DNA of 64,000 bases from an uncultured virus (IMG/VR IMGVR_UViG_3300017956_000004) (lineage: Duplodnaviria; Heunggongvirae; Uroviricota; Caudoviricetes). Both the position numbers and the translations under genes were made by a program. Shown in pieces: positions 4,069 to 53,255 of the stretch (position 1 is the first letter of the stretch; the number at the start of each line of letters is the position of its first letter). Below the pieces are notes generated by a model. That model did not search any database, was not told where the DNA came from, and saw nothing but the letters and a program-made list of their open reading frames with translations. The stretch lies in the IMG/VR virus record IMGVR_UViG_3300017956_000004. One strand, written 5' to 3'.

Positions 4069-4272
4069 TTATAATGTACTATTATCTGCCGCTGGTGCAG
4101 CATACATTACTCTGGCAAATTTATCGTGTTCTATCTTCTCTAGTTTCTTTATTTCTCTGTACTTACGCAGTTTATTTAGCTCTTCCAGAGTTAATTTGCT
4201 TTTTCTAGTATCGTCCTGCTCTCTTTTGTCATGCTTGTCATTTGCAGGATCGTAAAATTCTCTAAGTCTCAT
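4069..4272 (-). CDS. Small basic head-module protein of unknown function
   Basis: 67-aa ORF whose ATG overlaps the portal stop (TAATG); helical and Lys/Arg-rich. Confidence 0.75.
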   Translation of the reverse strand: MRLREFYDPANDKHDKREQDDTRKSKLTLEELNKLRKYREIKKLEKIEHDKFARVMYAAPAADNSTL

Positions 4273-5984
4273 TATACTACCTCTCCTCCAGGCGCTGGGG
4301 CCGCTGTGGGGTCTGGAGCCATTGCTGGATCAGCTGCTGGATCTGCCATGCCTGACATATCAACGTCAGCTTCTGCATCTACCATGTCGTTAGGTGCTGG
4401 CCTTACTCCCATTGCTCCTAGTCCAGGTACACCTTCCTCTTGTTGTGCTGTCTCATATTTCTCAGCACCGTTTTCCTGTCTCCACAGTTCTTCGTTTTCA
4501 CGTATTTCGTCTTCAGTTAAGCCCAGATACTTTTTAAGTTTAAACTGATTAGCCATATAAGGAATAGCCTGAATCTGTGCAAACAACTGAGCCTTTTCTG
4601 TTTCCAGTTGTATTTCCCTATATGAACTAAAGTTCATTGGCTTGTTAAATTCTAAATAATAGTTACCGCTATCAATTTCTACACCACGATGCTTGACAAA
4701 CATCTTGAATTCACGGTCTAAATCTTCCTGAATTTGCTTTTGTAAACGTTCTACATACTTGGCAAATCTATACTCTTGAATGTATGCAACGCCCACTTTG
4801 CCGTCATTATATACAGCGGAACCGTCTTCTGGCCCGGTTGGTAGGTAACTACTAGGTACCCTTAAACCACGTAGAAGTTTGTTATTGAAGTACCTTAAAT
4901 CATCTATCTGACCCAGGTTTTCACCGCCTGGTAATGTGTCTACTTTACTGCCTCTACCCTCTGCTGTTTGTGCAAAAAAGTAATCTTCCAGCATGCTCAT
5001 TGGGTTATATGCACTGTCTGCAACACTGTTACCGTCTTTGTTTTTGCCTGGAATACGCTTTTGCTGTACAGCATACTTAACTTGTTCCAGGTACTGACTT
5101 GCTTTATGAGGAGGCATATTACCTACATCAATAAAGAACACACGTCTTTCTGGTGCTCTGTGCACCCTATATATAATAATAGAGTCCTCTAATAATTCTT
5201 TTTGTTTAAATGTTTTAAAAATAGGTTCCAGGATACTGATACCAAACGGCCATGCACCGTCCATGCCTTCTGTTAAACTGATATGTACAACATGTTGTGC
5301 ATCTACTGGTATACCCTGATCCTGACCTTCTACTGAACCCGGTGCATATCCTGTTGCACTAATGTTAGTGGGGCTCATGATGCCTGTGATTCCTTGTCCG
5401 CTACCAAAAGGTCTAGCATGCATTGGTGCAACATCAGTTGCTACACGTTCTGCTGTGATGGGATCAATATTTTTAATAAAGTATGTTTCAATTTTTTTGC
5501 CTTCGCTTTCGTTTACAATAACTTTTTCCACGTTGGCTGGATCAACCCACATCATTTCATATGTTTCTGGGTCACGAATAAAAATTTGATCTCCGTACTT
5601 GATGGTGTTACGGAAAATTTTGAATGCTCTTTTATATAAGTCGTTTAAATTACACCATTGTTGTAGTGTTTTAGAAATAATTTTGCTTTCAGTATCGCTT
5701 GGGTTTTCAATATACTTGATGCTGAATGGTAAACCGTTAACTTCTTCTTCTTGAGTGCCAAATTCTGCAATGGTATCCAGTGCTGTGTTAATTTCTGAAT
5801 CCCCATCCATGTTATCATACTGCATGTATCTAAGCAGTCTGTTTGGCGAGCCAGCATATACTTCAGGTAACCAACTCTCAAAACGACTTGTTGCCGCTCC
5901 TGGCATTCCTGTAGGCTGATTACCCTGTATGTTAATGGGTAAACCACTATTGTCAACAGGTGTAAAGAACTTTTTCCAACTCAT
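4272..5984 (-). CDS. gp20: Portal vertex protein (gp20-like)
   Basis: LLEDSIIIYRVHRAPERRVFFIDVGNMP..KA.QY, MLEDYFF, G.GSKVDTLPGGENLGQIDD..YF..KL...L.VP.S.L. Confidence 0.97.
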   Translation of the reverse strand: MSWKKFFTPVDNSGLPINIQGNQPTGMPGAATSRFESWLPEVYAGSPNRLLRYMQYDNMDGDSEINTALDTIAEFGTQEEEVNGLPFSIKYIENPSDTESKIISKTLQQWCNLNDLYKRAFKIFRNTIKYGDQIFIRDPETYEMMWVDPANVEKVIVNESEGKKIETYFIKNIDPITAERVATDVAPMHARPFGSGQGITGIMSPTNISATGYAPGSVEGQDQGIPVDAQHVVHISLTEGMDGAWPFGISILEPIFKTFKQKELLEDSIIIYRVHRAPERRVFFIDVGNMPPHKASQYLEQVKYAVQQKRIPGKNKDGNSVADSAYNPMSMLEDYFFAQTAEGRGSKVDTLPGGENLGQIDDLRYFNNKLLRGLRVPSSYLPTGPEDGSAVYNDGKVGVAYIQEYRFAKYVERLQKQIQEDLDREFKMFVKHRGVEIDSGNYYLEFNKPMNFSSYREIQLETEKAQLFAQIQAIPYMANQFKLKKYLGLTEDEIRENEELWRQENGAEKYETAQQEEGVPGLGAMGVRPAPNDMVDAEADVDMSGMADPAADPAMAPDPTAAPAPGGEVV

Positions 5985-9635: not shown

Positions 9636-10490
9636 ATGGCAAACACACAAAATCCATTATCAGGTTTTTATCGTGCACCCAAGTTATATACTGGTTTACC
9701 TACCGGTGGTAAATTTTATGATGATGGTGTTATTGACTGGCCTGAAACAGATGAGCTTGCAGTATTTCCTATGACTGCTAAAGACGAAATGATCATGAAA
9801 AATCCTGACGCACTGCTTAACGGTGAGGCCGTAGCACAAGTGATTGCCAGTTGTGTACCAGCAGTAAAGAAGCCGCGTCAGTTAATCAGTAATGACGTTG
9901 ACGCATTATTAATTGCTATTCAGGGTGCGACTGCTGGAGACGAAGTTGAAGTATCTGGTAAGTGTCCTAAATGTAATGAGCAGGTAACTAGCATTGTTAG
10001 TATTGAAGGTGCATTAGACACTATGACTGTGTTAAAGGAAACATATCGTTTTAAAACAACACAGGATTTAGAGATTGAGATCAGACCTTACACTTACGAA
10101 AGCACAGTTAAAGCAGGTATTGCAAACTTCCAGAGCACACGTAGTTTACAAAGTTTACAGAATATTGAAGACGAGATGGAGCAACTTAAAGCATTTAACA
10201 ATAACTTTATGCAAATTGCTGCTCTTAACTTTGACTTGATTGTGGACAGTGTGTCTTGTGTACGCGGTAAAGATGCAGAAGGCGAAGACTTTATTGTAAC
10301 TGACCGCAAGCATATCAGAGAATTTTTGGAAAACTGTGAGAGTGCAGTTGGTCACAAAATTGAAGACAGCATTGCAGAAGTTAACAAACTGGGTGTACAG
10401 AAAACTGTGCAACTGGAATGTGAAGATTGTGAAGAAACATTTGAACAAGACATAGGATTTGATCCTGTAAATTTTTTCACAGCTTCCTAG
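9636..10490 (+). CDS. gp26: Baseplate hub / tail assembly chaperone (gp26-like)
   Basis: LPTGG.FY, V.PMTAKDE, D..ALL.AI..AT.G, CPKC...CEDC Zn motif, ends NFF; AGGAG RBS. Confidence 0.85.
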   Translation: MANTQNPLSGFYRAPKLYTGLPTGGKFYDDGVIDWPETDELAVFPMTAKDEMIMKNPDALLNGEAVAQVIASCVPAVKKPRQLISNDVDALLIAIQGATAGDEVEVSGKCPKCNEQVTSIVSIEGALDTMTVLKETYRFKTTQDLEIEIRPYTYESTVKAGIANFQSTRSLQSLQNIEDEMEQLKAFNNNFMQIAALNFDLIVDSVSCVRGKDAEGEDFIVTDRKHIREFLENCESAVGHKIEDSIAEVNKLGVQKTVQLECEDCEETFEQDIGFDPVNFFTAS

Positions 10491-10712: not shown

Positions 10713-11429
10713 ATGACAACCAAATGGTTATTCGATGTGGATGGCACACTAACACCCAGCAGAGGAACCATCCACCCAGACTTTAAAACTTTTTTTCATG
10801 ATTTTTGTAAAAACAATCATGTATATCTGGTCACGGGCAGTGACAAACCTAAAACAGTAGAGCAAATTGGTGCAGACACCTTTAACCTTTGCAAAAGGGT
10901 ATATAATTGTAGTGGCAATGAAGTGTGGGAAGGTGATGTGCAAATTAAAAGCTCTGACTGGATTTTACCTGAAGACATGCATGAGTGGCTCAGCATACAA
11001 CTAACTGACAGTCCTTATCCCAAACGTACTGGTTTGCATTTTGAACACAGAACTGGCATGGTTAATTTTAGTGTGGTAGGCCGGAATGCCCAGCATGGTG
11101 ACCGCAAACACTACTACACATGGGATTGTGTACATAATGAAAGATTAACTATTGCCGAAAAGTTTAACAGACTATTTGGTGACAGGGTGATTGCCAAAGT
11201 GGGCGGTGAAACTGGATTAGATATTTTTCCTGTTGGTTGTGATAAAGCCCAAGTTATTAAAGACTTTGAACCAGAAGATGACTTACATTTTTTTGGTGAT
11301 AGATGTGATGTTAATGGAAATGACTATAGTATATCTGTTAAAATATTAGATCACGGTGGTCGTGTATATCCTGTTACAGACTGGCAATCAACCTTTTCCT
11401 ATCTAGTAAGCTCAACTGAGAAGACCTAA
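10713..11429 (+). CDS. HAD-superfamily IIB phosphomannomutase-like enzyme (eukaryotic PMM type)
   Basis: FDVDGTLT, VTGSD..K..EQ, EHRTGMVNFS.VGR, GG.TG.DI.P.G.DK, FFGD....GNDY. Confidence 0.85.
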   Translation: MTTKWLFDVDGTLTPSRGTIHPDFKTFFHDFCKNNHVYLVTGSDKPKTVEQIGADTFNLCKRVYNCSGNEVWEGDVQIKSSDWILPEDMHEWLSIQLTDSPYPKRTGLHFEHRTGMVNFSVVGRNAQHGDRKHYYTWDCVHNERLTIAEKFNRLFGDRVIAKVGGETGLDIFPVGCDKAQVIKDFEPEDDLHFFGDRCDVNGNDYSISVKILDHGGRVYPVTDWQSTFSYLVSSTEKT

Positions 11430-11950
11430 AGGTCTTTCCAACTGCATTCATTCACTTCGCTTACGCTCAGTTCATTCATTTGTTGGAATTTTTTTACTAA
11501 GTTCATTATATTCGAACAAGTGAATTCATATTATATAAAGTACTTGCGACAGATGTTGAGGCCATACGAAGCCTGATTAAGGCTTCATATAAAAAAATGG
11601 CTTGCTATCGCTCTTGCGACTAGTGTCTTCAACCACACTGAAGGTAGGTATTTAATCTGCTACACAATGGGCTCTGACCTTTCCCAACCTACGTCGACTT
11701 GCTTTCGCAGCTGTTCTCTCGCTTCAATAGAAACAGTGTTTATGTGCATTGCAGTTGTTTGATTGACAGCATTCAACCTACACTAATACTTAACACCAGT
11801 GGGTGTGTCTCAGTGTGTACGTGTCTGGTTACATTTTCGCCAGGTTTTCCACAGCGGTATTACTATCCGGCCCGCCAACCTTGTGTGCTGTTTGTAAATG
11901 CCTTGATGTGTTTTAAAGATGTGCCATGTATGCCATGTTAGCCAATTTAT
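11430..11950 (-). ncRNA. Candidate large structured non-coding RNA, family not identified
   Basis: About 520 nt with no credible ORF in an otherwise gene-dense window; many hairpins (GNRA loop, G-U pairs that favour the minus strand) and crossing long-range pairings. Confidence 0.6.
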
Positions 11951-11952
11951 AG

Positions 11953-12378
11953 TTAGTCTTTGCTGAGTGCTTCACGTAAAATTTCTGAACCGCCAACTCT
12001 GACATTGATTATACCATTATAATACTCATCTGTCAATAGTACCTGTCTGTCAAACTGTTCTTTTGCTTCTAAGTAACTGGCCACTCCACGACTAGGACAA
12101 AAGTGTAGTATTTCGCGAGTAAAATTCTCTTCTCCAAACTCAGCAACATCTGCTTTTAGATGATCTGAACTACCCCAATACTCTCGCCAGTCACTTTCTT
12201 TAGTGCCTCGCCTTTTGTTCTTTTTGCCTTTTAGTGGTGGTTTAGTTGTTTTAAACTTTGCAAGTTTTTTGCCCACGTACTTTTTATCGTTAATTTTATT
12301 CGTGATCAAATACACGAATGCTTCGCAATCTTCTGGTAAATTGTCTATTATATTACCTTGATGTAGCCATGGACTCAT
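11953..12378 (-). CDS. Stand-alone GIY-YIG nuclease-domain protein
   Basis: FVYLITN..N.KKYVGKK, YWGSS, F.REIL..C, LE..EQ, YYN; 141 aa with no C-terminal DNA-binding extension. Confidence 0.85.
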   Translation of the reverse strand: MSPWLHQGNIIDNLPEDCEAFVYLITNKINDKKYVGKKLAKFKTTKPPLKGKKNKRRGTKESDWREYWGSSDHLKADVAEFGEENFTREILHFCPSRGVASYLEAKEQFDRQVLLTDEYYNGIINVRVGGSEILREALSKD

Positions 12379-44186: not shown

Positions 44187-47100
44187 ATGAAGATCAAACC
44201 CACAGTTGTTACTGCTCCACCACTTCCAGGAGTTCCAGACTATATTGCACCTTGGCAATATAGAAGATACCAAAATCTGTTGGCTCAGGAAAAAGTTTCT
44301 GCGTATACAACTTCTGGTGGTTACACTAATGAACAATTAAGATTAGCAGCCCGTGCAATGGGCAAATGTCCTCCTGGGTACGAAAACAAATGCAGAGTTT
44401 TGAGTTTGGACTATGGCAGTGATACACCTTTTATTAGTCCTGCTCCTGGCATCTCACCAATGGCCAGTTTAAATAATAAACAAGTAAAAGTATCTAAAAA
44501 TAGAACACTAAATGCAAGAGCCACAAACGAAAGAGTTTGGAATGGTACAAAATATATTACCACATATGGTAACAATAGCGGTGCCGGCACACCTGAAATG
44601 GCAGTGTGGAGAAGCATGCCTAGCTCATTTGCACAACCTAAAAAACAAACAGTCTCACCTGAACTATATGGCTACGCTACTGATGGTACCAACGGTATAA
44701 GCGAAAATCGATTCATTAGTGTAACACACCAGCGAGTATCTGGTGGTAATATTGTAGAAAACAGGAGAAAGCTCACTGTTGTACCCAGAGTACCAAAAAC
44801 ACTTAATTACATTGTACTACAAGAAGGTGACCAAAGCAAGACTTTAAAAAATCTTTCAGGATTAAATCAGACTACAAAATTTTATACTCAACCTCCTAAA
44901 GTAGGCACAACAGTAAGTGTTAATGGACAAACATTCCAAAACATTCAGTTGCCCGGCGGAAGCGGCTTCGAAGGCGTACCACCTGTTAAAGGTCCTGGTG
45001 ACCCCATTGGTAATGGCGGCGGCGGAGGCGGCGGAGGCGGAGATGGCGGTGGCGGCGGTGGCGGCGGTGGCGGCGGCCCCAATATTGTTGATCCTGACGC
45101 ACCACAATTTAATCTGCTGGATATTAATGGTGTAAGATTTAATCAAAAGCCTGCTATAGATATTACTCCCCTGGAAATTGATAGCCAGGGTAATTATTTT
45201 GCTGGTGGTCCTAAAGCCAGAGCATATATGAGTAGTCCTACCCCGGAAGTCAGTTTCCCGGCAAACGATTTGTTTGGCATAGCAGAAAATACAGAACTAT
45301 TAATTAATGGTAGAAAAGTAATCATACGCGGTGGTGGTTTGTCTGATATCAAAACGCAAGTAAACTGCGGCAGTATGGGTGTTGAGGCATTTATAGAAAA
45401 AGGCGATAGTGAAGAACAAGATACAATCACACTGGTAAGTTGTAATGGCAATCCGTTTACTATTGCTAATGGTTGCGGTGGTGGAACTTATCAGCAAGTA
45501 GGTGACTTCCATATTAACAGAGGTTTTGAACAACAGCGAAATAAAACAGTAAACTCTAATGCACATTTAATATCATCCAGTTTAAGCACATACAAAGATG
45601 AGGACGGCAGTCTAAATAAAACAAACTTTGGATATTTTGGCCCAGGCGGCAACGCCAAGGATTTAAATCCAGAAATTGGTAAACAAGAATACTTAAAGTT
45701 TTATCCTGTTCCTGCAAGTACTAACGACATTTCTGGAATAGGCAGTAAAGCAAATCCGTTTTTTATAGATACTGAGAGTACAACAACTACATTTACTACA
45801 TCAGGTAGTGGATACAGAGTGGGTGACAGATTGAGATTGGTTGGTGGTACTCCTGTAACAAACAGTAAAGGACCAATTACAAAAGTTTGTATAGAAAATG
45901 CAGGTAGTGGATATAAAAATCCAGCCAACCTACAAATATTATTTGACTCTTCAGATAACTCAGGTATAGGTGCAGTTGCAGTTGTAACAGCGTTAGATGA
46001 AAATGGCGGTATTGCAGAAATTGTAATGCGTAATGGTGGCGCTGGATATGATTTTAAAAAACCACCAAAAGTATCAATTTACGATGCAACACCCACAACA
46101 ACAGAATATACCAGTATAGATGCAGCATGGCCAGCACAACCTTACGGTGCTAATATAGAAGTAACTGCAAATCAGTATGTTAGAATTGATGCACAAACAG
46201 AAGTTTTAGATGCATTAGGTAAAGTAGTGGGCAACGAAGTTCAGAGCAGATACTTACTGGCAACCGGCGATCATGCATTTGGTGAGATGGTTGAAGTGGC
46301 TAAAAAAGAACTATTCACTGGCACGAACAATGTAACTAATATAGAACGTATAGAGGATAACAAGTATAAGAATCGTGTTAAGTTTACACTTGCTAATACA
46401 ACAGACTTAGTTACTCCTGGCACTGGTAAAGGTATGAGACCAAATAGTTATGTAATGGTTACTCACTATCCAGTGGGTGCAATTACTGGTCCATTAGAAA
46501 TTTTAGGGCATACAGGAAATGCTACAGTAAATTTTGAATACAGTGTTGAGTACAATCCACAACTGGAACAAACTTATTTAAACCAAAACAGTAGGACCAC
46601 ATCTCCTATAACAGATATTCAAGTTTCTAGACGAGAAGTAGCACTGTATGCAAATGTTTCTGGTAATATAGAATGTGTTGGCCACTCTTATATGTATAAC
46701 CCTAATGACAGTAGTGATGGTGGTAATATCACATTAAGCCAAATTTATGATACATCAGGTAATCCGGTACTGGCTAATGCTACAAACAGTTTAGCAGATG
46801 GTGGCAACGTGTGGATTTGCCCTAGCACTGTGAGCAAATTTTGGATACCAGAACATTATGATGACGGTTCTGTTTTTGGAGACACTGATACAAGTACTCC
46901 TTATTTTGTGATTAATCATCCTGACTTTTCCACTGATGCGGCAGTATCTCAGGCTTTCCCAGCTAACACAGATGTGAAAGTTTATAATATACAACCATGG
47001 TGGAATGGTATCAGAAACGTTAGTAACCCTCCGTTTATAGACAGTATTGATCCACGTACACCTAAAAATGAACCAGTACTAAGTGCTAAAATCGGTATAG

Positions 47101-50100
47101 ATGGTGATACAGGCGAGTTTTTAGATGATAGTGAGGGTGGCAGAAACTACAAAACTTTTGCAGGCCCCATAAGAGCGGCCAAGTTTATTGTAACAGGTGT
47201 AGATAGTCAAGGTGCTATCACCAGTTTACGTGTGATCGACCGCGGTTTATACGCAAACTTCCCTAGTGATTTAACATATGGTATCCCACTAGAATACGAC
47301 TATGCTACTGATGGCTCTGTGAGTATCCCAGAAGGTAAAGCAGGCACTTCTGTAGGGCAAGACATCAGGGGTAATACCCTGGGTGTGGTAGACCCCTCCA
47401 GGAACAATATAGCATACGGTACCAAAGAACATCCAGAGTATACCAGATACAGTAACTTTAAATCGGGCAGAGGCATATTTGTCAATGACAGTGACTTGGT
47501 TATTGATGGTATGGACGATCCAGAGGAGTGGGAGGGCCGCAAAGACTGGATTGTGGGCAAAGTGGAAGACAATGGACAGGGCCCTGCTAACTCAGCCGGT
47601 CTTGCAGCCCTGTTGGCTGCAACACAAGATCAATGGGGCAACAAGGTTGTTATCTGGTACATGAGATGGTTGGCCGCCGGCAGACCTAAAACACAGTACC
47701 GTTTACAGTTTCCTGTGGAATCATCTTACCTGGCAGATTTGTTAAACAGAACAGAAGAATCTTTAGAAGATTCAGAGACAGTTGGTGGCATCACGTACAA
47801 TCCAAAAGAAATTCTTGCTTCCTACAGAGAGAGCCAAGCAGCACTAGCCAATAGATCAGATCTCATACCATACAAACACGGAGATTGGGCATCTTATCAG
47901 GAGTTCTTTTACGACGGTAAATCGTTCCAGCCTTATACTGGTTCACCTGGTGCGTATGACCCTAGCACTTATGTTGCTCTTAATCCCACAGAGTTAAGAC
48001 TTAAAGGTCCGGCAAAAATGTTTGCAGAGGGCAAACTACTTAGAAAAGACAGACTGATAGAACTGGATCCTAAAAGTATTGAATACGGACTGTACAAAGG
48101 TACCAGAACAACAGGTGAATATCAACTTGCAGGTGGTACAGGTGCTAGGGTATTCTTAACAGCACAAGAAGTGCCTAACTGTAGTGAAAAAGGAACTGCT
48201 AAAGAATCTCTTAACTTGCCAGACGAAGTTGTAGAAGTAAATACACCCAGAGCGTTTACCAGAGCATTAAACAATGCATTAACTGGTGCAGGCTATAGTC
48301 CAACTGATATTAAATTTAAATTTACAGATTTAGGTGACATTGGACAGATAGATTTAGTTAGTACTTATCCTGGTTTTGAAATTGATGAACCAAACCCAGG
48401 CTTCATAGAAAAACTTGGATTACCAAAAGGCACATACAATACAGCAATGCTTTGTATAGAAGCCACTCTGAATGATCCCACATTAACAAACGACTCTGCT
48501 AATGCCATAATAGATCAGTTTTATGATTCAGAATATTTTGGTGCACTGACAGGAAGTGATTTAGCAAATGTAACAGGACTGCCGTCAGACTTACAAAGTC
48601 TGGAAAACACCGCGGTGCTAAGTTTACTTTGTGTGGACAAAGTTGGCCCTGCTAATAATCCTCCACTATATTTGAGTCCAGGTGCTACAGGTGCTCCATA
48701 TACTGGAATGCCGCCTGCAGTTCCATTAAATGATAATAACAGTATTTTTAATGGTGGTTACAAAACGGTTATTACAGAGCTTTTCAAATACGATCTAACA
48801 AACATTTATGGTGATAAATTAAGGCTGGGTTCTACAGAACCCAAGCAAACTACTGATGTATCTATTTTCAGCAGTAAACGATTTAACGACTTTAATAGTA
48901 TAAGTTTATATGCAACTCCTATTGAAGATACCATAGTAATACCAGAAGTACACAACCAAGCAAATGCATGGGTAGACAATTATAATGGTGGTTGGGCGTA
49001 TTTAGAAAATGGTAAAACAATCAGGTCCCAGAGTAATTTAACAGACACTAAATTTATAACTAATGTTTTAGCATATGATAGAGACACTGGAATCAAGAAC
49101 AGTGATCTAAATTTATGGGATCCATTCAAAGGTGTACTGCCTGGCGTGATACAAAATGAAATACATCACATCAATGAAATTGATCCTGTTGCATACACAA
49201 ATACCAGAAGTAGTTTTGGTAGAACCAAGGTAGGTCAAGTTTGGTGGGATACTAGTACTATTAGGTACGAGTGGTACGAACAAGGCACCAATGAGGAACG
49301 TCACAGACATTGGGGTAGAACATTCCCAGGATCATCTGTTACAGTATGTGAATGGGTAGAGAGTAAAGCATTACCACAAAACTGGAACGGCAACGGCTCT
49401 CCAAGATGGAGAGACAGATATATCACAGAGCGCCATCATGATCCTGTTACAGGTGAATACGAACAATATTACTATTACTGGGTACAAAACCGCACAATAC
49501 TGGATGACAGAGTAAAGAGAAATTGGAACAGGCAGTTTGATGTAGAAACTATTGCGAAGTATATTAGTAATCCTGTGGGCTATGGCTTAAATGTTGTTGC
49601 ATTTGTAAGTCCAGAAAGTTTTAATTTATATAACACTAATCAGTATATCACTGATAACGATACTCATATACAAATTAATTATAGCAGTAATTTAAATCCA
49701 GACGGCTTAAAGCATACCGCATGGAAATTAATGCGTGAGAATGATGATGCTAGCGACGTGCCACAGCACTTGTCAGATAAACTGATAGACAGTTTAGCAT
49801 CACAAGATGCTATAGGACAAACTGTACCTGATTTCACTTTAAGTTATGCTGAGAAATACGGTATAGGGTTCCGTCCACGACAAACCATGTTTGTAGACAT
49901 TCGCGAAGCACGTAGAGTGATGGCAAATGTACTGAATGAATTACTTGCAGACATAAAACTGGAAACGCAATATCCTGAATGGGATTCAGACGTAGAGCAT
50001 TATGGCTATACCTGGTCAAGAACAAACTGGTATGAAAAACTCAGAACTGATAATCAAACAAATAAAGTTATTAGATATGACGACAGTTACAAGCCTGTTT

Positions 50101-53100
50101 ATAAAACTTCAAGTGTAGCAGAGCTATACAAATTTAAAGACTTACCTGACGGTACAGTGATACAGGTTGATAATGAACAAAACAACTCCAGCGAGTTGTG
50201 GATTTATATTTCTAATACAGCAGATTTTAAACAAATTAGTATTAGTGACGAAACACTACAATTTAATGATGCAGTGTTTACTGATAGCACAACTCCTCTA
50301 CTGAGTGCTGAACTCAGAAGTGTATTGATCGCTCTCAGAGACAAAGTGTTTGTAAACACTAACAAGTGGAACAAATTGTTCTTTGCTATGTTAAAGCATG
50401 CATATATGGAACAAAATCAGTTAGATTGGGCATTTAAGACTTCTTATTTGTATGTAGAAAAAGAAGAAGACGACTTAATAGCAGTGTCTGGATTTAAACC
50501 AGATAACTTCCAGAAAGTATTGGATTACATGAATGAGGTCAAGCCTTATACAAGTAAAATCAGAGAATACAAAGATGGTAAGAAAACTCCTATAGAATAT
50601 ATAGGTGAGAGCTCATTAAGCGATTTTGATAATCCACCATATGTGGATAATATCAGTAACACTGTGATTATACTGGATGAAACCAATCCAGAAGATTTAA
50701 AAATAATGCAAAACAGTATTGCACACAGTGATTATATTACAGTCACAGATAAAAGTCAATCTCCAATACGTACAGCAAATACCAAATTAGTGTTTGACCG
50801 CACTAACTGGTTACCAACCATGAGAAACTGGAACAAGGAAACTACTCCAGTTAATATGAGTATTGCAGAAAACTTTGCTAACATTGTTCCTCTATATACA
50901 TCTAATATATCGCTACAAGCAGATGCTCAAGGGTATCTACAAGTGGCGAATGAAATTCGTGCTGTTGACAGAATTTTGGCATACTCACCAGATGCTAAGG
51001 CTACATTTATTGCTGAAATTAATACGTATTTTGATGATGTCACTGCTTACAATAACGCAGATATCATAACAAACAGCACTGTACTTTACAACATGATAGA
51101 AGATGGTGGACTGGATAGGACTCTTGCTCTGCTTAAGAAAGAAGTGGGTGGTAACTTCCGTGGCGAAACACTGGATGCACAAAAATTTCAAACCATAATT
51201 GATGATGTAAATTACATAAATCAAATTATCAAAGAGTTTGGATTTGATAGCCAAGGCTTTGACAGCATGTTAAGCATCAATGATACCACATATACTGACG
51301 ACCGTAATGCAAATAATTACGGTATAGTAACAACAATAGGTGTTGGTGATACGTCATGGGACAGCACAAAAGAATTAGTAAATTACCAAGGCGTTTTTGA
51401 TACTGATAAGCAAGGCAATGTAACACTACGTAGAAATGAAGAAAATTACGAAGGTTTTGATGGAGTAACATTCCAGAGAGTATTGTACGGCGAAGAACGT
51501 CCAGAAGAAATGGCGCTGATTGATCCACTAGAAAGTTTAGTTATGACCGTTACTACCTCAGAATTTGCACTGGGTGAAAATGTTATTACTACACAATACG
51601 ATCCGCATGATGTTGCAAATGCAAATGTAATTCACAGTGGAATTTCACTTAGTGATATAGAAATTGTTAATCCAGGTATAGGCTATGTAAATCCAACATT
51701 ACGTATTACAGACAGCACAGGGTATGGCCCAACCACACCAGCAAGTGCAAATGTAATAGTTAATTCAAGTGGTAGTATAACTGGGTTTGCTAACGTTGTT
51801 AGTGGTAGCGGATATAATTCCTTTAGATTTACATTAACAGATGACATAAGATTAACAACATTTGGTGATAAATCAATTACTGAAAACACCATAGAACTAT
51901 TAAGTAATGTAAATGCTAGAGTTGGGCAGATACTATATTATAATTCAAATCTGCTGGGTGAAATTTTAGATATTAATAATAACACCATAACATTAAGCTC
52001 TCCGTTAAGTTTGTTTATACCAACAGGCAGCACATTATCAGCATCAGGCAAGGATTTTTATGCAAGGGCTGTTGTGCCAACAACCACACAAACAGTGTTA
52101 GTGGACAAAGACTATGTCATACAGTCCTGGGAAAATGTTTCATATACATTTAGCAGTGTGTCCGGTAATAACGATTATGTGTCCGTTGCAAATGTGGAAT
52201 TCAGACATTTTAATGATGGCACAATAACAAATATTATTTCAGGCAGTGACCCTGATGAAACAGATGCTGTATATTATGTAGACACTGTTAACGGTTGGGA
52301 CACAGCAAATGTAGACGCAGCTCAGGGCTCTTTTGATGTTCAAACAAATGATGCAACAGCACTAGTGGTTGAAAAGATTCCTTATGGTGCAGAAGTTAAG
52401 CACAGGGTTCATCTAAATTTATTTGGTTCTACAGATTACTTAAGAATCAGACCAGAAACCACTACACATATTGTGGGCAATGTTTATTCGTATAGTGAAA
52501 AGATAACACTGGACAATGACAATTTCCTAATTGATCCTACAACCAGAGACCCTGGTGTTATTTGGGTAGGCAGTGAGCAGATAAAATATGCAAGGCGCAG
52601 TGGAAAAACAATTAGTTTGCTAACACGCGGTGTTGCAGGCACCACAATACAGGATCACGTAGATGGTACAGAGGTATACAGTGGAGAGTTTACTGAACTG
52701 TTTAACCACTTGAACCCAGCAGCAAATATATGGTTGGATACAGGTACCAGATACGAGCTGCCTGCAAGTTGGGACGAAGCGATAGACTTGACACCAAGTA
52801 ATCCTAACGATAACCTTTGGAACGTACAAGTTGCATGGGACGAAATATCCAACAGTAATATCACAATCAGTAATGTATCTGCTAATGTTACAACGGTAAC
52901 AACAGCAAATGGTAATGTTACATCAGCAGTATTAGAATTAAGTGGTAATGCTAATCTTGCAGTGGACGAAGGTGTCAGAATAACAAATGGCAGTAACGCA
53001 CAAGTTGTATTAGTGGATCAAATTAGCGGTTCTAATGTAACACTGGTTGCTGATCACAGAGATGTAATGTTTAGTAATGTGTTTGTACAAAGTGCTACAG

Positions 53101-53255
53101 TTACATTGTCGTCGTTCAATTATGCTGGCCAAGAAGCAGGAGATACTTGGGACAACGCAGTTATTGCTGGACAGTCTGCACAAAGTTTGGCTGACAGAGC
53201 TAACGCAGACTACACAACACTTAACAGTATTATGAGGTTCTTGCATAACTTATAA
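44187..53255 (+). CDS. Giant baseplate wedge protein, C-terminal part
   Basis: AAGGAG RBS; LWDPFKG, VGQVWWD, FPGSS..V.EWVES, YYYWV, KYGI..RPRQTMF, DWAFKTS, EVKPY..KIREY, RPEE. Confidence 0.75.
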   Translation: MKIKPTVVTAPPLPGVPDYIAPWQYRRYQNLLAQEKVSAYTTSGGYTNEQLRLAARAMGKCPPGYENKCRVLSLDYGSDTPFISPAPGISPMASLNNKQVKVSKNRTLNARATNERVWNGTKYITTYGNNSGAGTPEMAVWRSMPSSFAQPKKQTVSPELYGYATDGTNGISENRFISVTHQRVSGGNIVENRRKLTVVPRVPKTLNYIVLQEGDQSKTLKNLSGLNQTTKFYTQPPKVGTTVSVNGQTFQNIQLPGGSGFEGVPPVKGPGDPIGNGGGGGGGGGDGGGGGGGGGGGPNIVDPDAPQFNLLDINGVRFNQKPAIDITPLEIDSQGNYFAGGPKARAYMSSPTPEVSFPANDLFGIAENTELLINGRKVIIRGGGLSDIKTQVNCGSMGVEAFIEKGDSEEQDTITLVSCNGNPFTIANGCGGGTYQQVGDFHINRGFEQQRNKTVNSNAHLISSSLSTYKDEDGSLNKTNFGYFGPGGNAKDLNPEIGKQEYLKFYPVPASTNDISGIGSKANPFFIDTESTTTTFTTSGSGYRVGDRLRLVGGTPVTNSKGPITKVCIENAGSGYKNPANLQILFDSSDNSGIGAVAVVTALDENGGIAEIVMRNGGAGYDFKKPPKVSIYDATPTTTEYTSIDAAWPAQPYGANIEVTANQYVRIDAQTEVLDALGKVVGNEVQSRYLLATGDHAFGEMVEVAKKELFTGTNNVTNIERIEDNKYKNRVKFTLANTTDLVTPGTGKGMRPNSYVMVTHYPVGAITGPLEILGHTGNATVNFEYSVEYNPQLEQTYLNQNSRTTSPITDIQVSRREVALYANVSGNIECVGHSYMYNPNDSSDGGNITLSQIYDTSGNPVLANATNSLADGGNVWICPSTVSKFWIPEHYDDGSVFGDTDTSTPYFVINHPDFSTDAAVSQAFPANTDVKVYNIQPWWNGIRNVSNPPFIDSIDPRTPKNEPVLSAKIGIDGDTGEFLDDSEGGRNYKTFAGPIRAAKFIVTGVDSQGAITSLRVIDRGLYANFPSDLTYGIPLEYDYATDGSVSIPEGKAGTSVGQDIRGNTLGVVDPSRNNIAYGTKEHPEYTRYSNFKSGRGIFVNDSDLVIDGMDDPEEWEGRKDWIVGKVEDNGQGPANSAGLAALLAATQDQWGNKVVIWYMRWLAAGRPKTQYRLQFPVESSYLADLLNRTEESLEDSETVGGITYNPKEILASYRESQAALANRSDLIPYKHGDWASYQEFFYDGKSFQPYTGSPGAYDPSTYVALNPTELRLKGPAKMFAEGKLLRKDRLIELDPKSIEYGLYKGTRTTGEYQLAGGTGARVFLTAQEVPNCSEKGTAKESLNLPDEVVEVNTPRAFTRALNNALTGAGYSPTDIKFKFTDLGDIGQIDLVSTYPGFEIDEPNPGFIEKLGLPKGTYNTAMLCIEATLNDPTLTNDSANAIIDQFYDSEYFGALTGSDLANVTGLPSDLQSLENTAVLSLLCVDKVGPANNPPLYLSPGATGAPYTGMPPAVPLNDNNSIFNGGYKTVITELFKYDLTNIYGDKLRLGSTEPKQTTDVSIFSSKRFNDFNSISLYATPIEDTIVIPEVHNQANAWVDNYNGGWAYLENGKTIRSQSNLTDTKFITNVLAYDRDTGIKNSDLNLWDPFKGVLPGVIQNEIHHINEIDPVAYTNTRSSFGRTKVGQVWWDTSTIRYEWYEQGTNEERHRHWGRTFPGSSVTVCEWVESKALPQNWNGNGSPRWRDRYITERHHDPVTGEYEQYYYYWVQNRTILDDRVKRNWNRQFDVETIAKYISNPVGYGLNVVAFVSPESFNLYNTNQYITDNDTHIQINYSSNLNPDGLKHTAWKLMRENDDASDVPQHLSDKLIDSLASQDAIGQTVPDFTLSYAEKYGIGFRPRQTMFVDIREARRVMANVLNELLADIKLETQYPEWDSDVEHYGYTWSRTNWYEKLRTDNQTNKVIRYDDSYKPVYKTSSVAELYKFKDLPDGTVIQVDNEQNNSSELWIYISNTADFKQISISDETLQFNDAVFTDSTTPLLSAELRSVLIALRDKVFVNTNKWNKLFFAMLKHAYMEQNQLDWAFKTSYLYVEKEEDDLIAVSGFKPDNFQKVLDYMNEVKPYTSKIREYKDGKKTPIEYIGESSLSDFDNPPYVDNISNTVIILDETNPEDLKIMQNSIAHSDYITVTDKSQSPIRTANTKLVFDRTNWLPTMRNWNKETTPVNMSIAENFANIVPLYTSNISLQADAQGYLQVANEIRAVDRILAYSPDAKATFIAEINTYFDDVTAYNNADIITNSTVLYNMIEDGGLDRTLALLKKEVGGNFRGETLDAQKFQTIIDDVNYINQIIKEFGFDSQGFDSMLSINDTTYTDDRNANNYGIVTTIGVGDTSWDSTKELVNYQGVFDTDKQGNVTLRRNEENYEGFDGVTFQRVLYGEERPEEMALIDPLESLVMTVTTSEFALGENVITTQYDPHDVANANVIHSGISLSDIEIVNPGIGYVNPTLRITDSTGYGPTTPASANVIVNSSGSITGFANVVSGSGYNSFRFTLTDDIRLTTFGDKSITENTIELLSNVNARVGQILYYNSNLLGEILDINNNTITLSSPLSLFIPTGSTLSASGKDFYARAVVPTTTQTVLVDKDYVIQSWENVSYTFSSVSGNNDYVSVANVEFRHFNDGTITNIISGSDPDETDAVYYVDTVNGWDTANVDAAQGSFDVQTNDATALVVEKIPYGAEVKHRVHLNLFGSTDYLRIRPETTTHIVGNVYSYSEKITLDNDNFLIDPTTRDPGVIWVGSEQIKYARRSGKTISLLTRGVAGTTIQDHVDGTEVYSGEFTELFNHLNPAANIWLDTGTRYELPASWDEAIDLTPSNPNDNLWNVQVAWDEISNSNITISNVSANVTTVTTANGNVTSAVLELSGNANLAVDEGVRITNGSNAQVVLVDQISGSNVTLVADHRDVMFSNVFVQSATVTLSSFNYAGQEAGDTWDNAVIAGQSAQSLADRANADYTTLNSIMRFLHNL
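45015..45077 (+). repeat. (GGN)n low-complexity tract encoding G9-D-G11
   Basis: GGC/GGA/GGT triplet run seen directly. Confidence 0.95.

What the first reader, a model, noticed from the sequence alone, without database searches (positions are those of the whole stretch)
11644..11888. Multi-pseudoknot core within the candidate RNA
Minus-strand pairings found by eye. A: GCACACAA (11888-11881) with UUGUGU-A-GC (11667-11659). C: GGGCC (11873-11869) with G-A-GCCC (11674-11669), with a bulged A reminiscent of the group I P7 guanosine site. B: the looped-out GGUUGGC (11880-11874) with GUCAAUC (11767-11761). D: GUAGGU (11692-11687) with ACCUAC (11649-11644). The order A B C B' D C' A' D' implies two crossing pairings. 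Peripheral hairpins include CUGG/CCAG, CACUGGUG/UAUUAGUG, CUGUU/AACAG and UGC-GAAA-GCA. This density resembles ribozymes or large structured RNAs more than a UTR.
Basis: partly seen in the sequence, partly recalled or inferred. Interest (0 to 1): 0.8.

Follow-up and report, generated by a model that had tools for sequence, protein, structure and literature searches.

The report
Pseudoknotted phage RNA, probable replication primer
This stretch is the core of a real, heavily knotted non-coding RNA of about 350 bases in marine jumbo phages; three of the four long-range pairings first proposed are wrong, and the RNA most likely pairs back onto its own DNA to start genome replication, which is untested.

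Summary
Real RNA, mostly wrong pairings. The window is a PA5oct/RaK2-like jumbo phage. Bases 11892-11543 (minus strand), behind a SegE-type GIY-YIG gene and a 12/12 sigma-70 promoter, form a conserved structured RNA (113 homologues under 95% identity). A revised 61-pair model is 96% paired, with 43 compensated pairs and three crossing pairings. The 3' end has two direct repeats that change together by identity (21 joint against 5 other changes) with no partner in the RNA. DNA-type GNA and tandem-GA hairpins follow. The window has no Rfam hit, but its 3' module is homologous to a sister element whose 5' part is the orphan Polynucleobacter-1 motif. The element also occurs without the nuclease. 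Cultured jumbo phages hold a same-architecture element (no sequence homology shown) in 2-5 copies; one is PA5oct ncRNA004. Best model (0.45): a ColE1-like R-loop preprimer at a replication origin; skew tests gave no support. The scan found this family before on other DNA (e1-5735907).

The parts
12008..12036 (-). sigma-70 promoter, 12/12 with extended -10 TG, inside the 3' end of the GIY-YIG gene; predicted start near 12001
   Evidence: at this site only 3 of 121 distinct type-1 sequences score >=10/12, so not a family feature
11953..12378 (-). SegE-type GIY-YIG nuclease gene (141 aa) after gp47/gp46; usual but not obligatory neighbour
   Evidence: Pfam PF19835 E 2.8e-33; upstream of the RNA in 74 of 80 motif-found loci; absent in L117 and L125
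11543..11892 (-). structured non-coding RNA, conserved core (type 1, long form)
   Evidence: 113 homologues, 341 to >435 nt, mean identity 72%
11766..11891 (-). P1 / pseudoknot 1: 11891-11886 pairs with 11771-11766, in the loop of P5
   Evidence: 99% paired, 5 of 6 pairs compensated; 35 double changes, 1 break
11821..11876 (-). P2 (11876-11872 / 11857-11853), P3 (11852-11850 / 11823-11821), P3a hairpin (11843-11840 / 11828-11825)
   Evidence: 99%, 94%, 84% paired; 8, 7, 51 double changes
11761..11816 (-). P4 (11816-11810 / 11786-11780) and P5 (11778-11774 / 11765-11761)
   Evidence: 96% and 99% paired; 48 and 20 double changes
11657..11754 (-). P6 (11747-11743 / 11666-11662, extended by 11754-11751 / 11660-11657 in this sequence); crosses helix D = pseudoknot 2
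   Evidence: inner 5 pairs 95% paired, 39 double changes; the outer extension aligned poorly and was left out of the count
11711..11736 (-). P7 hairpin with conserved purine loop; the loop (11726-11722) pairs with 11643-11639 = pseudoknot 3, contiguous with D
   Evidence: stem 97% paired, 46 double changes; pseudoknot 3 95.5% paired but 0 double changes in the automatic alignment; a register-shifted compensation is visible by eye in the window, L007, L013, L336
11644..11692 (-). helix D (11692-11687 / 11649-11644) enclosing P9 (11686-11683 / 11671-11668) with a conserved 11-nt loop
   Evidence: 98.5% and 96% paired; 3 and 5 double changes
11613..11620 (-). direct repeat copy 1 (8 nt), followed by a U-run at 11597-11591
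   Evidence: identity covariation with copy 2
11563..11591 (-). hairpin P12 between the repeats
   Evidence: 98% paired, 5 of 9 pairs compensated
11543..11550 (-). direct repeat copy 2; predicted RNA end / primer site (inference)
   Evidence: the PA5oct ncRNA004 3' end falls at the equivalent place
11436..11489 (-). long hairpin arm with three tandem G.A pairs (11479-11446); probably folds as displaced single-stranded DNA (inference)
   Evidence: only such hairpin of >=9 pairs in the 64 kb; in type-1 tails 61 of 89 on this strand, 0 of 89 on the other
11421..11436 (-). terminal hairpin; overlaps the stop codon of the convergent phosphomannomutase-like gene
   Evidence: in homologues the loop is mostly a GNA triloop

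Best explanation
A transcription-primed replication origin that works like ColE1 RNA II. SHOWN: a conserved RNA fold with three crossing pairings; a promoter in this genome; a 3' module of repeat 1 - hairpin - repeat 2 whose copies change together; a tail whose hairpins have DNA-type loops; independence from the nuclease. INFERRED: the nascent RNA folds so that repeat 1 is presented and pairs with the template DNA strand at repeat 2 while P12 is looped out, which starts a persistent RNA-DNA hybrid. The RNA ends or is cut near repeat 2 and primes leading-strand synthesis. The displaced DNA strand folds into the tandem-GA and GNA hairpins that load primase or helicase.
For: (1) Repeat copies are identical in 105 of 110 scored homologues, with 21 joint and 5 other changes on the tree, and no column of the aligned RNA covaries as their complement. 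So the partner is outside the RNA; the template strand fits. The same identity covariation appears in type 2 and in cultured-phage elements. (2) The core is enriched in GNRA tetraloops (43 vs 23 shuffled) but not GNA triloops. The tail is enriched in GNA triloops on both strands (90 vs 26, 58 vs 20; type 2 55 vs 11), and loops of its GA arm do not follow the GNRA rule. Such mini-hairpins are much more stable in DNA and occur at primase and polymerase start sites (PMC13037366, passages). (3) ColE1 needs an rG stretch to pair with the template dC stretch and exposes helicase/primase sites on the displaced strand; T4 has several R-loop origins (PMC4412123, passages). (4) Same-slot, same-architecture elements in cultured jumbo phages have sigma-70 promoters and 2-5 copies per record. 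The four PBECO4 copies are spread round the genome on one strand. A PA5oct paralogue is ncRNA004: 0.08/0.03/0.02% of reads early/middle/late, ending at repeat 2 just before the tail. (5) The element occurs in unrelated terminase-adjacent contexts without the nuclease, and an RNase HI gene follows it in phage Phosso.
Against: There is no direct evidence of replication. GC skew follows gene direction, with no replication-linked signal at four-fold sites in 4 of 4 genomes. The link to cultured phages rests on position and architecture only; HMM and covariance models of type 1 find nothing in PBECO4, PA5oct or Phosso. Marine genomes show one detectable copy, cultured ones several. RNase H (PF00075) was found in only 2 of 5 records, neither beside the element. 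No antisense control RNA was looked for or seen. The repeats are 7-12 nt and not G-rich in type 1, unlike ColE1. Paired protein-binding sites or gene conversion would also give identity covariation. Tail counts come from related sequences and are not independent. The reason for so many conserved unpaired bases is unexplained.
Confidence: 0.45

Rival explanations
1. A trans-acting RNA (scaffold or decoy for a host or phage protein); the repeats are paired protein-binding sites and the tail is a terminator or unrelated DNA signal.
For: Elaborate fold with invariant loops; multiple copies in cultured phages; identity covariation fits two sites for one protein.
Against: PA5oct ncRNA004 is rare (0.02-0.08% of reads vs 1-5% for ncRNA001/002). 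No terminator-like site was found. A fixed one-base offset between the copies and a DNA-type tail at a fixed distance point to action in cis.
Confidence: 0.2
2. A ribozyme of a new class that processes itself out of the gp46-nuclease transcript or acts on nucleic acid at the repeats.
For: Three crossing pairings and many invariant unpaired bases; in many homologues the 5' end overlaps the nuclease stop codon with no clear promoter; possible alternative pairings.
Against: No Rfam ribozyme match; 5' domains are interchangeable between types while the 3' module is kept; no joint shared across the RNA runs marks a clean excision.
Confidence: 0.14
3. RNA partner or guide of the GIY-YIG nuclease, with repeat 1 guiding a nick at repeat 2.
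For: The gene lies directly upstream on the same strand in 74 of 80 motif-found loci; 56 of 80 nuclease-found loci carry type 1 or 2.
Against: The element occurs without the gene (L117, L125). The gene occurs without the element (24 of 80 hit neither profile, several of them in other contexts; Melnitz). Cultured phages lack PF19835 (0 of 3) and have Endo VII or a resolvase there instead. The repeat is almost invariant, unlike a guide.
Confidence: 0.11
4. A cis-regulatory leader or antiterminator for downstream genes.
For: Weinberg 2010 scored Polynucleobacter-1 as probably cis-regulatory; several cultured copies precede same-strand genes.
Against: In the window the next gene is convergent; the first downstream ORF is on the opposite strand in 30 of 73 loci.
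Confidence: 0.07
5. A group I intron-like ribozyme with a P7 guanosine site, or the RNA of a retron-like system.
For: A G-A-G-C-C-C motif is nearly invariant.
Against: Helix C has 0 double changes and 13 breaks; its strands pair in P2 and P9; no interrupted gene; no group I hit; no RVT_1 match in 5 of 5 records, two of them complete genomes.
Confidence: 0.03

Closest known systems
Polynucleobacter-1 RNA motif (Rfam RF01718; Weinberg 2010, PMC2864571)
   Same: L078 holds RF01718 (107.8 bits) in the same slot directly behind the GIY-YIG gene. Its 3' part matches the model of the window's 3' half (33.8 bits, E 4.5e-6), including repeat-hairpin-repeat.
   Different: The window does not match RF01718. 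RF01718 covers only a 141-nt 5' domain with another fold, no 3' module and no known function.
ColE1 RNA II preprimer / phage T4 oriF, oriG R-loop origins
   Same: Promoter, long folded RNA, an upstream RNA stretch that repeats a downstream DNA stretch, structured signals downstream (PMC4412123).
   Different: No sequence similarity (no plasmid hit); multi-pseudoknot fold; mixed-sequence repeats rather than a G run; no antisense RNA I seen; T4 origins lack a large folded RNA (recalled).
PA5oct ncRNA004 (Lood 2020, PMC7318152) and unannotated gaps of RaK2-like jumbo phages
   Same: Paralogue of the element in the gp46-to-baseplate slot; promoter, folded RNA, repeat-hairpin-repeat, tandem-GA tail.
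   Different: No detectable sequence homology to the window's type; multi-copy; no function proposed in the passages read.
Group I introns (Rfam RF00028 recalled)
   Same: Size and pseudoknot density.
   Different: No P3-P7 core, no exons, no Rfam match.

Membership tests
Group I intron | P7 helix with bulged A and G-C guanosine site (feature recalled) | tested here: not met
   Helix C: 0 double changes, 13 breaks; strands pair in P2 and P9
Group I intron | Interrupts a gene, with P1 5' splice site and terminal G | tested here: not met
   Lies between a complete GIY-YIG ORF and a convergent gene
Group I intron | Match to the Rfam model | tested here: not met
   No hit at gathering or E<=10
Group I intron | GTP-dependent self-splicing | not testable with these tools
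   Needs an in vitro assay
Polynucleobacter-1 (RF01718) | Score above gathering (37 bits) | tested here: not met
   No match in the window; the sister locus L078 scores 107.8
Polynucleobacter-1 (RF01718) | Shared 3' module and genomic slot with an RF01718-bearing element | tested here: met
   Model R1 hits L078 1779-1902 at E 4.5e-6; E-values of this model are rough
ColE1-type origin | Promoter-driven long structured preprimer | tested here: met
   Promoter 12/12, fold; promoter not conserved at that site in the family
ColE1-type origin | Sequence homology to RNA II / RNA I | tested here: not met
   No plasmid match, no Rfam hit
ColE1-type origin | RNA stretch pairing with a downstream template stretch | tested here: inconclusive
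   Identity-covarying repeats without an RNA partner fit, but pairing with DNA is inferred
ColE1-type origin | Persistent hybrid, RNase H cut, replication start | not testable with these tools
   The skew test gave no signal
Retron / RT-associated RNA | Cognate reverse transcriptase nearby | tested here: not met
   None among the flanking genes scanned; PF00078 in 0 of 5 records
Nuclease-guide systems (OMEGA-like) | Obligate nuclease gene plus variable guide | tested here: not met
   Element without nuclease; repeats nearly invariant

The most novel reading that the evidence does not exclude
A superfamily of large pseudoknotted phage RNAs with swappable 5' domains that target their own DNA: repeat 1 acts as an internal guide to repeat 2, and the folded RNA itself, without an initiator protein, opens or chemically primes the origin. 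This would be an RNA-built initiator shared by marine, freshwater and cultured jumbo phages, with Polynucleobacter-1 and PA5oct ncRNA004 as unrecognised members.
Probability: 0.15. Interest if true: 0.92.

Novelty: new variant of a known kind. Interest (0 to 1): 0.72.

Why it matters
No replication origin for RaK2/PA5oct-like jumbo phages turned up in the searches made, and large orphan RNAs of this complexity are rare. The element gives a concrete candidate origin and a base-pair-level test (matched changes in the two repeats). It points to culturable models (PBECO4-like phages, PA5oct) and could give a function to the orphan Polynucleobacter-1 motif. Even if the origin model fails, this is a well-supported triple-pseudoknot RNA fold that is absent from Rfam.

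Tried and rejected
Single-sequence folding and helix counts: no better than shuffles. A long-range pairing of the P9 loop (11680-11675) with 11564-11559: it competes with P12, which is compensated, so it is left as a possible alternative state; not counted in the model. Two candidate partners for the conserved 11634-11630 loop (11872-11867 or 11698-11694): both are highly paired, neither is compensated, undecided. GC-skew origin test: uninformative; the element lies within about 5-15 kb of a strand switch in each genome, but other switches exist. RNA runs: four metatranscriptomes hold contigs matching 11669-11956, 11669-12041, 11751-11901 and 11450-11678 exactly, but neighbouring genes are covered as well and contigs show neither strand nor level, so this is not evidence of a discrete RNA. 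blastn of the element against phages and plasmids: nothing. Motif scan for more Polynucleobacter-1 loci: 0; blastn of L078: 0. PDB search of the nuclease: nothing useful. PA5oct supplement searches for read counts at the syntenic copy: nothing relevant. The recalled name 'Arisong' is a ciliate RNA, unrelated. The window's own genome is not held, so copy number there is unknown beyond one copy in 64 kb.

Full report
Setting. The window is a large T4-like myovirus: portal 4272-5984, gp26-like baseplate gene 9636-10490, phosphomannomutase-like gene 10713-11429 (+), and on the minus strand a late sigma factor, gp47, gp46 and a 141-aa SegE-type GIY-YIG gene at 11953-12378. Portal and gp46 are closest to PA5oct, Phosso, Atu_ph07 and RaK2-like jumbo phages (52-54% identity at best). 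The finding lies in the 523-base gap between the convergent GIY-YIG and phosphomannomutase genes. Rfam, ARAGORN and blastn found nothing there.

Checking the observation. The strands exist as quoted, but helices of this size are as common in shuffles and the folding energy is ordinary, so only homologues can decide. A profile found 173 full-length long-form hits. 171 could be cut whole, and 113 remained below 95% identity. Short-form and truncated hits were left out. Most of the 113 rows were selected by a motif covering D's 5' strand and P9, which lowers variation there. Tree counts of double changes, one-sided keeps and breaks are A 1/35/48, B 0/38/35, C 0/4/13, D 3/16/7, against 0.24 double changes for a random complementary column pair.

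The real fold. Mutual information and inspection gave 12 helices and 61 pairs: 96.4% paired, 43 pairs compensated, 772 compensated cells vs 213 shuffled, and slid controls 36-44% paired. The model was derived from these sequences, so the controls flatter it; the tree counts (35, 8, 7, 51, 48, 20, 39, 46 double changes for P1, P2, P3, P3a, P4, P5, P6, P7) are the stronger evidence. The 5' strand of A pairs with 11771-11766 in the loop of P5 (pseudoknot 1). The 3' strand of A pairs with 11747-11743 (P6), which crosses D (pseudoknot 2). The 3' strand of B closes the local hairpin P5. The strands of C belong to P2 and P9. The P7 loop pairs with 11643-11639 next to D (pseudoknot 3; conserved, compensation seen only by eye). 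The RNA is on the minus strand, as G-U wobbles show. A 12/12 sigma-70 promoter with extended -10 lies at 12036-12008, but only 3 of 121 distinct type-1 sequences score 10 or more at that site; many start at the nuclease stop codon.

The 3' module. In 105 of 110 scored rows the two 7-mers are identical; on the tree 21 changes hit both copies alike and 5 do not; no column acts as their complement. The three unscored rows (window, L336, L117) carry their own variants in both copies. After repeat 2 the loop statistics switch from RNA-type (GNRA 43 vs 23 shuffled in the core) to DNA-type (GNA triloops 90 vs 26 and 58 vs 20 on the two strands). A tandem-G.A arm folds on the RNA-like strand in 61 of 89 tails and on the other strand in 0 of 89. 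The window's own arm loop is GNRA-compatible, so this single case does not discriminate.

Relatives. The nuclease lies directly upstream in 74 of 80 motif-found loci; 4 of the other 6 are truncated, and 2 (L117, L125) sit in unrelated phages upstream of terminase genes. Of 80 nuclease-found loci, 23 hit the type-1 profile, 33 a second, differently folded type with its own covariation and repeats, and 24 neither. These 24 include a third type with its own promoter and repeats (L029, L041, L069, L073) and L078, whose 5' part is Rfam Polynucleobacter-1 (107.8 bits) and whose 3' part matches my model R1 of the window's 3' half (E 4.5e-6; L079 and L080 weaker). In cultured jumbo phages the gp46-to-baseplate slot holds a promoter-driven gap with the same architecture in PBECO4, PA5oct and Phosso, but not visibly in Atu_ph07. 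The PBECO4 element has matches in 72 records, with 2-5 places in 39 of the 40 records listed and 1 in a 22-kb record. It has four same-strand copies in PBECO4 and 38 of 70 predicted pairs compensated among 11 copies. The PA5oct element has paralogues at 12.9 and 246 kb; the latter coincides with ncRNA004 (246116-246734, low and highest early), whose annotated end falls at repeat 2, about 50 bases before a 32-base tail identical in both copies. No profile links type 1 to these cultured elements; the link is position and architecture.

Mechanism. Identity covariation with no RNA partner means the repeats share an outside partner. The template strand is the simplest one, and ColE1 is the precedent: an RNA stretch pairs with a template stretch, a persistent hybrid forms, RNase H or polymerase supplies the primer end, and the displaced strand exposes helicase and primase sites (PMC4412123). 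DNA mini-hairpins are known from primase and N4 polymerase start sites (PMC13037366). I therefore favour an R-loop preprimer origin (0.45). I wrote this idea down before seeing that an earlier agent reached it on another genome (e1-5735907); that note is not independent support, and another (e1-5739744) argues against priming at a Polynucleobacter-1 locus. Against the model: no skew signal, RNase H in 2 of 5 records and not beside the element, one copy in marine genomes, and no account of the invariant loops. Rivals are a trans-acting RNA (0.2), a new ribozyme (0.14), a nuclease partner (0.11), a cis-regulator (0.07) and group I or retron (0.03).

Literature. Ten searches (listings only unless named) showed no description of this fold or system. 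Read as passages: PMC7318152 (supplement searches), bioRxiv 10.1101/406421, PMC2864571 (supplement searches), PMC13037366 and PMC4412123. PMC10690425 (ten thousand viral RNA candidates): abstract start and supplement searches only; the motifs were absent from the files searched, but files 1 and 2 could not be read and may hold this family. The commentary files of PMC2864571 (S1.DOC, S3.PDF, S4, S7) were unreadable and may say more on Polynucleobacter-1. Subscription journals are mostly outside the library. Group I features and the RF00028 label are recalled.

Verdict. A real, strongly supported multi-pseudoknot phage RNA absent from Rfam, related through its 3' module to an orphan motif. Interest 0.72.

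Noticed in passing
L078:1465-1902: Rfam Polynucleobacter-1 is only the 5' third of a roughly 450-nt element that ends in the same repeat-hairpin-repeat module and tail.
   Followed up: partly
L002, L004, L017 and 44 non-redundant loci: A second RNA type in the same slot with its own pseudoknots, a switch-like alternative pairing and 10-12 nt repeats in which copy 1 is one base longer; no Rfam hit.
   Followed up: partly
L029, L041, L069, L073: A third type with a sigma-70-like promoter overlapping the nuclease stop codon and jointly changing repeats.
   Followed up: no
L046, L062, L071, L072, L087: Short form of type 1: the P1-P5 domain is replaced by a smaller domain while P6 onward is kept.
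   Followed up: no
L205:6740-7420; L467, L470, L475; L531-L537: Unannotated roughly 500-nt structured RNA gene family with 2-5 copies in cultured RaK2-like jumbo phages, often mis-annotated as tiny ORFs.
   Followed up: partly
L496:6116-6817 and L484:12850-13500: PA5oct ncRNA004 and an unannotated third paralogue of the element at 76 kb.
   Followed up: partly
L117, L125: Type-1 element in unrelated phages, upstream of terminase genes and without nuclease or gp46, suggesting transfer between phage groups.
   Followed up: partly
window:10713-11429: Eukaryote-type phosphomannomutase gene (PF03332) inserted between the element and the baseplate genes; its stop codon lies in the terminal hairpin loop.
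   Followed up: no
window:11953-12378: PHROG 447 and many records label this GIY-YIG family 'NAD synthetase', apparently a propagated mis-annotation.
   Followed up: no
window:27547-44163 and 44187-53255: Very long ORFs of 5538 and 3022 aa in the structural block.
   Followed up: no
L322-L324: The element occurs in contigs binned into bacterial MAGs; two copies with the nuclease lie on two contigs of one bin, probably mis-binned phage DNA.
   Followed up: no
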